Program-made: the position numbers and the translations under genes
Notes under the pieces: model-generated
The model's input: the letters and a program-made list of their open reading frames with translations, nothing else
What the model was told of the DNA's origin: nothing
Database searches by the model: none
In this document: piece by piece, positions 22,494-23,980 of the stretch
How the letters are laid out: every line of letters begins with the position of its first letter
Position numbering within the stretch: the stretch's first letter is position 1
Source: Escherichia coli
Lineage (GTDB): Bacteria > Pseudomonadota > Gammaproteobacteria > Enterobacterales > Enterobacteriaceae
Length of the DNA stretch: 64,000 nt
Reading direction: 5' to 3' (one strand)
Assembly (NCBI RefSeq): GCF_044324875.1
Contig: NZ_CP172185.1

Positions 22494-22575
22494 CGTCCTG
22501 TGATTGTGCCGGATGCGATGTAATTGAACTGCACCCCAAATGTTGGACATAATCTGACATCTGAAGGTGCAGTTT

Positions 22576-23097
22576 ATGAAACATTCATTTGAAGTAAAAC
22601 TTGCCGCTGTAAATCACTACCTGGCCGGTCATGCAGGCATCATTTCTACGGCAAAACTCTTTCAACTTTCTCACACCAGCCTCTCACACTGGATTAATCT
22701 TTTTCTTCTTCACGGTCCTCGGGCACTGGATTGCAGACACAAGCGTAGCTATTCTCCTGAAGATAAACTTTGCGTGGTTCTTTATGCTCTCGGGCATTCT
22801 GAGTCTCTACCCCGGGTAGCTGCCCGGTTTAACATTCCCAGCCACAACACGGTTAAAAACTGGATAAAAGGCTACCGCAAATCTGGTAATGAGGCCTTTA
22901 TCAGGCGCTGGAAGGAGAAAAGCATGACCCGTTCTGATGATACCCATGAAAACGAGGCAAACATGACGCCGGAAGAGATGAAGAATGAGCTGCGTTATCT
23001 TCGCGCAGAAAATGCATATCTGAAAGCCATGCAGGAGCATCTCCTGGAAAAAAAGCGCCAGGAGCTGGAGAAAAAACGAAAGTCATCCGGAGCCTGA
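22576..23097 (+). CDS. insJ: IS150 OrfA (HTH DNA-binding protein)
   Basis: 173 aa from MKHSFEVKLAAVNHY; ends just past the slippery heptamer. Confidence 0.9.
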   Translation: MKHSFEVKLAAVNHYLAGHAGIISTAKLFQLSHTSLSHWINLFLLHGPRALDCRHKRSYSPEDKLCVVLYALGHSESLPRVAARFNIPSHNTVKNWIKGYRKSGNEAFIRRWKEKSMTRSDDTHENEANMTPEEMKNELRYLRAENAYLKAMQEHLLEKKRQELEKKRKSSGA

Positions 23098-23924
23098 GGT
23101 GCGGACACTGCCAGTCTGACCTGTTAAAGGCTGCAGGGCTGGCCAGAAGCACGCTGTACTACCAGCTGTCACTGCAGAAGGCTAAGGACAAGTATGCTGA
23201 TGTGAAACAGCTCATAGCCTCCATCTTCCATGAACACCGGGGATGTTATGGGTACCGGCGGATCCATTGTGAGCTTCAGAAAAGAGGTCTTAAGTTCAGT
23301 GGCAAAACGGTGCGAAAACTGATGCAACAGCTCGGCCTGAAGTCTCCTGTGCGCCTGAAGAAATACCGGTCTTACCGGGGAAATATGGGACTCGCTGCAG
23401 AAAATATCCTTCAGCGGCAGTTCAAAGCGGAAGCTCCCTGTGAGAAATGGGTGACAGATATCACCGAATTCAGGGCTGGCGGACAAAAACTGTACCTGTC
23501 CCCGATACTTGATTTGTTTAACGGGGAAATCGTGGCGTGGGAAACGGCCTGCAGGCCTACAGAGGAGCTGGTGAAGCGGATGTTAAATAAGGGGCTGGAA
23601 AGCCTTGCTGAAGGGGAGAAACCGCTGCTCCACAGTGATCAAGGATGGCATTACCGGATAAAAAGTTATCAGTCCGCCCTGGCGGACAGAGGGTTAGTGC
23701 AGAGCATGTCGCGCAAGGGCAACTGCCTTGATAATGCGGTAATGGAGAACTTCTTTGGTCACCTGAAAGAAGAAATGTACTATCGCCGGGACTACAGAAA
23801 TGTAGAAGAGCTGGAAAATGCCGTTAACGAATACATAACTTACTGGAATCAAAAAAGAATAAAACTCAGTCTTGGGGGACTCAGTCCGGTAGAATACCGG
23901 ACTGAGCATCAAAAAGCCGGTTAA
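23049..23924 (+). CDS. insK: IS150 OrfB (DDE transposase catalytic part), expressed as OrfAB fusion by -1 frameshift
   Basis: A AAA AAG heptamer at 23049-23055 in the orfA frame; the -1 frame is open from there to 23924 and has no ATG before the GTG at 23202. Confidence 0.8.
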   Translation, partial: KKAPGAGEKTKVIRSLRCGHCQSDLLKAAGLARSTLYYQLSLQKAKDKYADVKQLIASIFHEHRGCYGYRRIHCELQKRGLKFSGKTVRKLMQQLGLKSPVRLKKYRSYRGNMGLAAENILQRQFKAEAPCEKWVTDITEFRAGGQKLYLSPILDLFNGEIVAWETACRPTEELVKRMLNKGLESLAEGEKPLLHSDQGWHYRIKSYQSALADRGLVQSMSRKGNCLDNAVMENFFGHLKEEMYYRRDYRNVEELENAVNEYITYWNQKRIKLSLGGLSPVEYRTEHQKAG

Positions 23925-23980
23925 CTGAAACTGTCCAGGTTTTGGGGTTCAGTTCAAATCATCTATCCGGCATACAGTAA

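What the first reader, a model, noticed from the sequence alone, without database searches (positions are those of the whole stretch)
22494..23980. IS150 inserted in the loop of the cysE/trmL convergent terminator hairpin, with no obvious target-site duplication
Joining the flanks (…tgccggatgcga | tctatccggca…) reconstitutes a perfect 8-bp stem tgccggat/atccggca with a 7-nt loop, a REP-like terminator shared by the convergent cysE and trmL. The 1443-bp element sits exactly in that loop. The 3 bp on either side (cga and tct) are not identical, so either the ends are a few bases from where I placed them or there is no target-site duplication. The insertion removes the terminator for both genes and places IS-borne sequence 20-25 bp from each stop codon.
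Basis: seen in the sequence. Interest (0 to 1): 0.5.

Follow-up and report, generated by a model that had tools for sequence, protein, structure and literature searches.

The report
IS1397 inserted in a REP hairpin
The element between cysE and trmL is an ordinary copy of IS1397, an insertion sequence already known to target the loops of REP hairpins, and it has a normal 3-bp target duplication once its ends are placed correctly.

Summary
There is a real insertion sequence between the convergent genes cysE and trmL, and it does split a hairpin. Three details of the finding are wrong.

1. The element is IS1397, not IS150. It is 99.9% identical to RefSeq copies annotated IS1397. It cannot be aligned with K-12 IS150 at the DNA level, and OrfB is only 51% identical.
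2. The ends were placed 6 and 5 bp too far out, inside the hairpin arms. Comparison with IS-free E. coli sites and 15 other copies gives 22525-23956 (1432 bp, TGAACTG…CAGTTCA). A clean 3-bp duplication, AAT, flanks it at 22522-24 and 23957-59.
3. The hairpin is a Y-type REP/palindromic unit, TGCCGGATGCGATG-TAAT-CATCTATCCGGCA. It has no U tract, so it is not a recognisable intrinsic terminator.

All 11 other IS1397 sites I examined also lie in REP apical loops; 10 have clean 3-4 bp duplications, and one has none. This matches the published target specificity of IS1397.

The same junction occurs in 132 of 5426 complete E. coli genomes, which suggests a single inherited event. One further genome has an independent insertion 2 bp away.

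The finding is already known and of low interest.

The parts
21672..22493 (+). cysE (serine O-acetyltransferase), intact, 273 aa, stop TGA at 22491-22493
   Evidence: ORF list. RefSeq annotation of the identical locus in other genomes.
22507..22520 (+). 5' arm of the split Y-type palindromic unit (REP): TGCCGGATGCGATG
   Evidence: Alignment with empty sites. Fold of the reconstituted site. Same arm consensus as 11 other IS1397 target sites.
22522..22524 (+). Left copy of the 3-bp target-site duplication, AAT. These are loop positions 2-4 of the TAAT loop; T22521 is loop position 1.
   Evidence: The empty site has one AAT and the occupied site has two.
22525..23956 (+). IS1397, 1432 bp, with TG…CA termini
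   Evidence: 99.9% identical to copies annotated IS1397. Ends fixed by 16 copies in 12 different flanking contexts.
22525..22549 (+). Left terminal inverted repeat (IRL): TGAACTGCACCCCAAATGTTGGACA
   Evidence: Inverted repeat I1. 21 of 25 positions match IRR, by my count from the end sequences printed.
22576..23097 (+). orfA (173 aa from ATG 22576). It contains the A7G slippery run at 23048-23055.
   Evidence: RefSeq CDS starts at the equivalent position and is flagged 'programmed frameshift'.
22576..23924 (+). orfAB transposase, 449 aa, made by a -1 frameshift. It is uninterrupted.
   Evidence: Reconstruction. NCBIfam NF033516 IS3 family transposase, 384 bits against a cut-off of 160.
23932..23956 (+). 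Right terminal inverted repeat (IRR): TGTCCAGGTTTTGGGGTTCAGTTCA
23957..23959 (+). Right copy of the target-site duplication, AAT
23960..23972 (+). 3' arm of the split palindromic unit: CATCTATCCGGCA, followed by the PU tail TACAG
23981..24454 (-). trmL (tRNA 2'-O-methyltransferase), intact, 157 aa, stop TAG at 23983-23981

Best explanation
An intact 1432-bp copy of IS1397 (IS3 family) transposed into the 4-nt apical loop of a solitary Y-type REP/palindromic unit between cysE and trmL. Staggered target cleavage duplicated 3 bp of the loop (AAT).

This is the element's normal, transposase-directed target choice, not an unusual event. The insertion most likely happened once in an ancestor and was inherited, because 132 complete E. 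coli genomes share the identical junction.

Both coding sequences are untouched. The only direct consequence is that the REP hairpin can no longer form at the 3' end of either mRNA.

Inferred, not shown:
- Transposition proceeds by the copy-out/paste-in route of the IS3 family.
- cysE read-through transcripts enter the IS but do not drive transposase translation. IRL bases 22525-22535 pair with the Shine-Dalgarno/start region at 22565-22575, a fold-back occlusion.
For: Identity:
- 99.9% over the full length to copies annotated 'IS3-like element IS1397 family transposase'.
- IS3-family transposase HMM at 384 bits.
- Intact orfA and orfAB with an A7G frameshift site.

Ends and duplication:
- The empty sites of K-12 and CFSAN018748 read …GCGATGTAATCATC…. 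The window reads …GCGATGTAAT|IS|AATCATC….
- Sixteen copies share the TGAACTG…CAGTTCA ends.

Target rule:
- Eleven other distinct sites all lie in the apical loop of PU hairpins: barA/gudD, ygcP/ygcQ, ysaA/avtA, ruvB/znuB, yjcO, yvcK/uvrB, rrf, aldB, gatY/fbaB, pgm, and a second event at cysE/trmL.
- Ten of these have clean 3- or 4-bp duplications.

Literature:
- IS1397 inserts specifically into E. coli REPs, and the transposase determines the specificity (PMC1525189; PMC3184786).
- The reconstructed CFT073 copy sits at TGCCGGATGCGGCGTG|AACGCC…, the same position (PMC1525189 supplement 13).

Population:
- 134 of 5426 genomes have the site occupied.
- 132 have this exact junction, and 1 has a GTA junction 2 bp away.

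Fold-back:
- Minimum free energy -32.9 kcal/mol, z-score -4.1.
Against: - I could not align to the ISfinder/GenBank IS1397 reference itself. Identity rests on RefSeq naming of near-identical copies.
- The primary IS1397 papers (Bachellier 1997; Clément 1999; Wilde 2001, 2003) are not held. The published 1432-bp length and 3-4 bp duplication are from my memory, although both are reproduced here empirically.
- One surveyed copy (gatY/fbaB, L016) lacks a clean duplication.
- The fold-back structure has no covariation support, because all copies are nearly identical.
- The effects on cysE and trmL expression are untested.
Confidence: 0.95

Rival explanations
1. One reading: the element is IS150 (1443 bp, 22519-23961), and it inserted without generating a target-site duplication.
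For: The terminal repeats resemble those of IS150 (TGAACTGCACCCCAAA vs TGTACTGCACCCATTT).
Against: - The DNA cannot be aligned with IS150 beyond patches of 70 nt or less at about 75% identity. OrfB is 51% identical and OrfA 27%.
- RefSeq names it IS1397.
- The 11 extra bases are present in every IS-free site, so they are host sequence.
- Other copies have unrelated sequence at those positions.
- An AAT duplication is present.
Confidence: 0.01
2. The hairpin is a functional bidirectional terminator or 3'-end stabiliser for cysE and trmL. Its disruption by the IS then changes expression of one or both genes, and the allele has phenotypic meaning in its lineage.
For: - The empty site folds strongly as RNA on both strands (-23.1 and -19.4 kcal/mol).
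- It lies 13 nt from the cysE stop and 8 nt from the trmL stop.
- It is conserved in about 5284 of 5426 genomes.
- From my own knowledge, not checked here: REPs stabilise upstream mRNA, can attenuate transcription, and reduce translation when within about 15 nt of a stop codon (Liang, Rudd and Deutscher 2015; paper not held).
Against: - There is no U tract on either strand, and 0 terminator-like hits.
- No literature links this spacer to termination.
- The allele persists in 132 genomes from humans, poultry, cattle, pigs, wild birds and water. No gross fitness cost is therefore evident, and no expression data are available.
- The IS supplies a replacement 13-bp perfect hairpin about 75 nt downstream of the trmL stop.
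Confidence: 0.2
3. The occupied allele reached this strain by homologous recombination of a cysE-IS-trmL segment from another lineage, not by vertical descent from one ancestral transposition.
For: 132 genomes share an identical junction. Flank identity among carriers falls into classes of 99.7% and 99.9%.
Against: No phylogeny was built. At least one carrier is labelled ST69, and similar genome sizes and site coordinates suggest a related group. An identical junction is equally expected from clonal descent.
Confidence: 0.15

Closest known systems
IS1397 (E. coli, IS3 family; Bachellier/Clément/Wilde/Hofnung)
   Same: - Near-identical sequence to annotated copies.
- 1432 bp with TG…CA ends.
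- orfA/orfAB with a -1 frameshift.
- Insertion in the central loop of palindromic units with a 3-4 bp duplication.
- The reconstructed CFT073 copy inserts at the same PU position.
   Different: Nothing of substance. The target PU here has an unusual A/T-rich apex (GATG-TAAT-CATC instead of GGCG-TGAA-CGCC). This shows that the apex sequence is not critical.
IS150 (E. coli K-12 insJK)
   Same: - IS3 family, with a two-ORF frameshift architecture.
- Similar terminal repeat motif (TG-ACTG-ACCC…TTGGACA).
- 3-bp duplications.
- From memory, ISfinder places IS1397 in the IS150 group.
   Different: - 1443 bp against 1432 bp.
- DNA is not alignable. OrfB is 51% identical and OrfA 27%.
- IS150 has no reported REP-loop specificity.
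ISKpn1 (Klebsiella pneumoniae)
   Same: An IS3-family element specific for palindromic units. The transposase determines the specificity (PMC1525189).
   Different: It targets the Klebsiella-type PU and is a different element. I did not compare the sequences here.
IS621 and other IS110-family REP-targeting elements (ISPpu9, ISPa11)
   Same: They use REP sequences as specific insertion targets (PMC1525189; PMC3184786).
   Different: They belong to an unrelated transposase family (DEDD, RNA-guided). IS621 inserts at the 3' side of the REP outside the inverted repeat, not in the loop. From my own knowledge, they make no IS3-type duplication.

Membership tests
IS1397 | Nucleotide identity above 90-95% to IS1397 | tested here: met
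   99.9% over 1432-1443 bp to many RefSeq copies annotated 'IS3-like element IS1397 family transposase'. I made no direct alignment to the ISfinder reference.
IS1397 | 1432-bp element with TG…CA termini and imperfect terminal inverted repeats of about 25 bp | tested here: met
   22525-23956 is 1432 bp. The repeats match at 21 of 25 positions. The published length is from memory.
IS1397 | Insertion in the central loop of a palindromic unit (REP) with a 3-4 bp target duplication | tested here: met
   AAT is duplicated in the TAAT loop. The same loop position holds at 11 other sites, 10 of them with a clean 3-4 bp duplication, and in the reconstructed CFT073 site.
IS3 family | orfA plus orfB fused by a programmed -1 frameshift, and a DDE (rve) transposase | tested here: met
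   A7G slippery run at 23048-23055. The 449-aa fusion is uninterrupted. NF033516 scores 384 bits against a cut-off of 160.
IS150 (the element) | High nucleotide identity to K-12 IS150 and a length of 1443 bp | tested here: not met
   Only patches of 70 nt or less at about 75% identity. OrfB is 51% identical and OrfA 27%. The true length is 1432 bp.
REP / palindromic unit, Y type | Conserved arms GCCGGATGCG … (C)TTATCCGGCCTAC forming an imperfect palindrome with one bulge, in an extragenic position | tested here: met
   The empty site reads TGCCGGATGCGATGTAATCATCTATCCGGC(A/C)TACAG. K-12 has the full GGCCTAC tail. The fold has the same shape as canonical PUs. The site lies between two stop codons. 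K-12 REP annotation could not be consulted, because the table lists no repeat features at all over 35 kb.
Rho-independent (intrinsic) terminator | G+C-rich hairpin immediately followed by a U tract | tested here: not met
   The hairpin is present, but the tails are TACAGTAA on the plus strand and CAATCACA on the minus strand. There are 0 terminator-like sites in the empty locus.

The most novel reading that the evidence does not exclude
In the uninterrupted state this REP lies 13 nt from the cysE stop and 8 nt from the trmL stop. That is close enough to act on ribosomes terminating both convergent genes, through the REP-dependent translational down-regulation reported by Liang et al. 2015 (recalled from memory). 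Splitting the REP with IS1397 would then de-repress CysE and/or TrmL in the lineage of about 132 genomes that carries it, making the insertion a selected regulatory allele rather than a neutral marker.
Probability: 0.07. Interest if true: 0.4.

Novelty: already known. Interest (0 to 1): 0.1.

Why it matters
It matters little beyond annotation hygiene.

- The case shows how REP arms flanking a loop-specific IS can mimic extended terminal repeats. That misleads end-calling and produces a spurious 'no duplication' anomaly.
- The insertion is a usable lineage marker. The identical junction occurs in 132 of 5426 complete E. coli genomes.
- A second, independent hit 2 bp away confirms that this diverged PU is a genuine IS1397 target.
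- Any regulatory effect on cysE or trmL is speculative.

Tried and rejected
- **Primary papers.** I tried to read the primary IS1397 papers (PMC94167, PMC169884, PMC95333, PMC135288) and Liang et al. 2015 (PMC4427526). None is held. I relied instead on secondary papers and on my own survey.
- **K-12 REP annotation.** I tried to use NC_000913.3 to see whether the cysE-trmL hairpin is a named REP. The table lists no repeat features at all in 35 kb, so it is uninformative.
- **Literature on a terminator.** A search for a cysE/trmL terminator returned nothing.
- **IS150 identity.** Rejected by direct comparison.
- **Intrinsic terminator.** Rejected on sequence, because there is no U tract.
- **IRL promoter.** The promoter-like match in IRL (22524-22553) is within chance expectation: 1 found against 1.9 expected. 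I give it no weight.
- **Other copies in the window.** I looked for one and found none.

Full report
**What is in the sequence.** The window has cysE on the plus strand (21672-22493, 273 aa). trmL is on the minus strand (23981-24454, 157 aa). Both are intact, and an element with two overlapping transposase reading frames lies between them.

**Which element it is.** A search of 5426 complete E. coli genomes finds full-length copies at 99.9% identity. Every one is annotated 'IS3-like element IS1397 family transposase, programmed frameshift'.
- K-12 IS150 (3720633-3722075, 1443 bp) shares only a few patches of 70 nt or less at about 75% DNA identity.
- At the protein level, OrfB is 51% identical to InsK and OrfA 27% identical to InsJ.
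- The terminal repeats are similar in pattern (TGAACTGCACCCCAAA vs TGTACTGCACCCATTT). That probably prompted the IS150 call.
- The window copy encodes an uninterrupted 449-aa OrfAB through a -1 shift at the A7G run 23048-23055. It matches the NCBIfam IS3 transposase model at 384 bits against a cut-off of 160.

**Where the ends are.**
- The empty site in K-12 and in strain CFSAN018748 reads TGCCGGATGCGATGTAATCATCTATCCGGC(C/A)TACAG.
- The window reads …GCGATGTAAT | TGAACTG…CAGTTCA | AATCATCTATCCGGCA.
- Sixteen copies in twelve flanking contexts share the TGAACTG…CAGTTCA termini and diverge immediately outside them.
- The element is therefore 22525-23956, 1432 bp, flanked by a perfect 3-bp direct repeat AAT (22522-22524 and 23957-23959).
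- The 'missing duplication' came from placing the ends 6 and 5 bp too far out. Those extra bases belong to the hairpin arms (…GATG T / CATC…). The arms are inverted repeats of each other and so look like a continuation of the IS terminal repeats.

**What the target is.** The reconstituted site folds into a 14/13-nt interrupted stem with a 4-nt loop, TAAT.
- As RNA, the free energy is -23.1 kcal/mol in the cysE sense and -19.4 kcal/mol in the trmL sense.
- Its arms (TGCCGGATGCG… and …CTATCCGGCCTAC in K-12) are those of the Y-type palindromic unit, or REP. Only the apex is diverged and A/T-rich.
- No U tract follows on either strand. The consensus scan finds no terminator-like site in the empty locus. 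'Terminator' is therefore not supported by sequence. 'REP' is supported.

**Is this placement special?** It is not. I fetched IS1397 copies from 11 further distinct sites: barA/gudD, ygcP/ygcQ, ysaA/avtA, ruvB/znuB, yjcO, yvcK/uvrB, downstream of rrf, aldB, gatY/fbaB, pgm, and a second event at cysE/trmL.
- Every copy sits in the apical loop of a PU hairpin.
- Duplications are 3 or 4 bp in 10 of the 11.
- Both orientations relative to the PU occur: 8 in one orientation and 3 in the other among these 11.
- The literature states that IS1397 inserts specifically into E. coli REPs and that the transposase determines this specificity (PMC1525189; PMC3184786).
- The reconstructed CFT073 insertion site in that paper's supplement is at the same PU position.
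- The primary papers were not available. I recall from them the 1432-bp length and the 3-4 bp duplications. Both are reproduced by the data here.

**Population context.**
- 134 of 5426 genomes have IS1397 at cysE-trmL.
- A 40-nt junction probe shows that 132 share the window's exact junction.
- One genome, Z1323HEC0462, has an independent insertion in the same orientation 2 bp away, with duplication GTA.
- Carriers come from humans, poultry, cattle, pigs, wild birds and water. One is labelled ST69.
- The simplest reading is one ancestral event that was inherited, plus one recurrence at a preferred target.

**Likely consequences (inference).** The coding sequences are untouched. IS sequence starts 31 nt after the cysE stop and 24 nt after the trmL stop.
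- The REP hairpin can no longer form on either mRNA.
- In the empty state the REP begins 13 nt from the cysE stop and 8 nt from the trmL stop. That range is one where REPs have been reported to affect translation termination (Liang et al. 2015, from memory; paper not held). A regulatory effect is conceivable but untested.
- RNA reading from cysE into the IS folds so that IRL bases 22525-22535 pair with 22565-22575, the Shine-Dalgarno region just before the orfA ATG. The free energy is -32.9 kcal/mol, the z-score is -4.1, and 0 of 200 shuffles fold as well.
- This is the classic 'fold-back' protection against outside transcription described for IS10 and IS50 and proposed for IS150-like elements (my own knowledge). 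There is no covariation to test it.
- RNA reading in from trmL meets a 13-bp perfect hairpin at 23879-23907.

**Verdict.** This is a real but ordinary feature. It is a known IS, with its known target specificity and a normal duplication. The anomaly in the finding was an end-placement artefact.

Noticed in passing
L003:2900-4330 (E. coli Z1323HEC0462, NZ_CP148331.1): A second, independent IS1397 insertion lies in the same cysE-trmL REP loop and in the same orientation. It is offset by 2 bp, with duplication GTA instead of AAT. It is unique among 5426 genomes.
   Followed up: yes
L021:601-665 (K-12 MG1655, between yhhI and yhhJ): A 65-bp relic of the IS1397 right end (95% identical) directly abuts the 3' half of a Y-type PU (…CAGTTCA|TAAACGCCTTATCCGGCCTA). 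K-12 has no full copy. About 1800 genomes match the IS only partially; in the 'spread' sample nearly all of these rows were this 65-bp relic (3485 with any match against 1707 with a full copy). Homology starts in the loop of the IS-internal palindrome, next to an ISEc1/H-repeat element.
   Followed up: partly
L016:370-1860 (gatY/fbaB site, strain ECNB21-M121): This IS1397 copy sits in a Z-type PU loop but has no clean target duplication (flanks …GCTTCC | IS | GCCAGC…; TCC vs GCC). It may reflect a mutated duplication or recombination between copies.
   Followed up: no
L013:401-2231 (downstream of rrf, strain Z0117EC0054): A 1431-bp, frameshifted (pseudogene) IS1397 copy lies in a degenerate PU just after a 5S rRNA gene. 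A frameshifted IS110-family transposase sits about 200 bp further on. Two families that target REPs may therefore be present in one repeat cluster.
   Followed up: no
window 23880-23906: A perfect 12-bp inverted repeat with a 3-nt loop (CTCAGTCCGGTA-GAA-TACCGGACTGAG) lies inside the 3' end of orfB. In RNA read from the trmL side it forms a 13-bp helix. Its function is unknown.
   Followed up: partly
window 22525-22575: The extreme left end of the IS (UGAACUGCACC) pairs with the Shine-Dalgarno region just upstream of the orfA start codon (GGUGCAGUUUA). Only transcripts that start outside the IS can form this pairing (z-score -4.1). It is a predicted fold-back that would silence transposase translation from cysE read-through.
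   Followed up: partly
window 37443-37472, 37517-37541, 48706-48735, 52528-52560: Four other intact canonical PUs/REPs are in the window, none occupied by an IS. The pair at 37443 and 37517 is in opposite orientation about 45 bp apart, which resembles a BIME.
   Followed up: no
window 22524-22553: The only sigma-70-like match in the region (TTGAAC-18-CATAAT) lies in IRL. Its -35 hexamer borrows its first T from the duplicated AAT. The match is within chance expectation (1 found, 1.9 expected).
   Followed up: no
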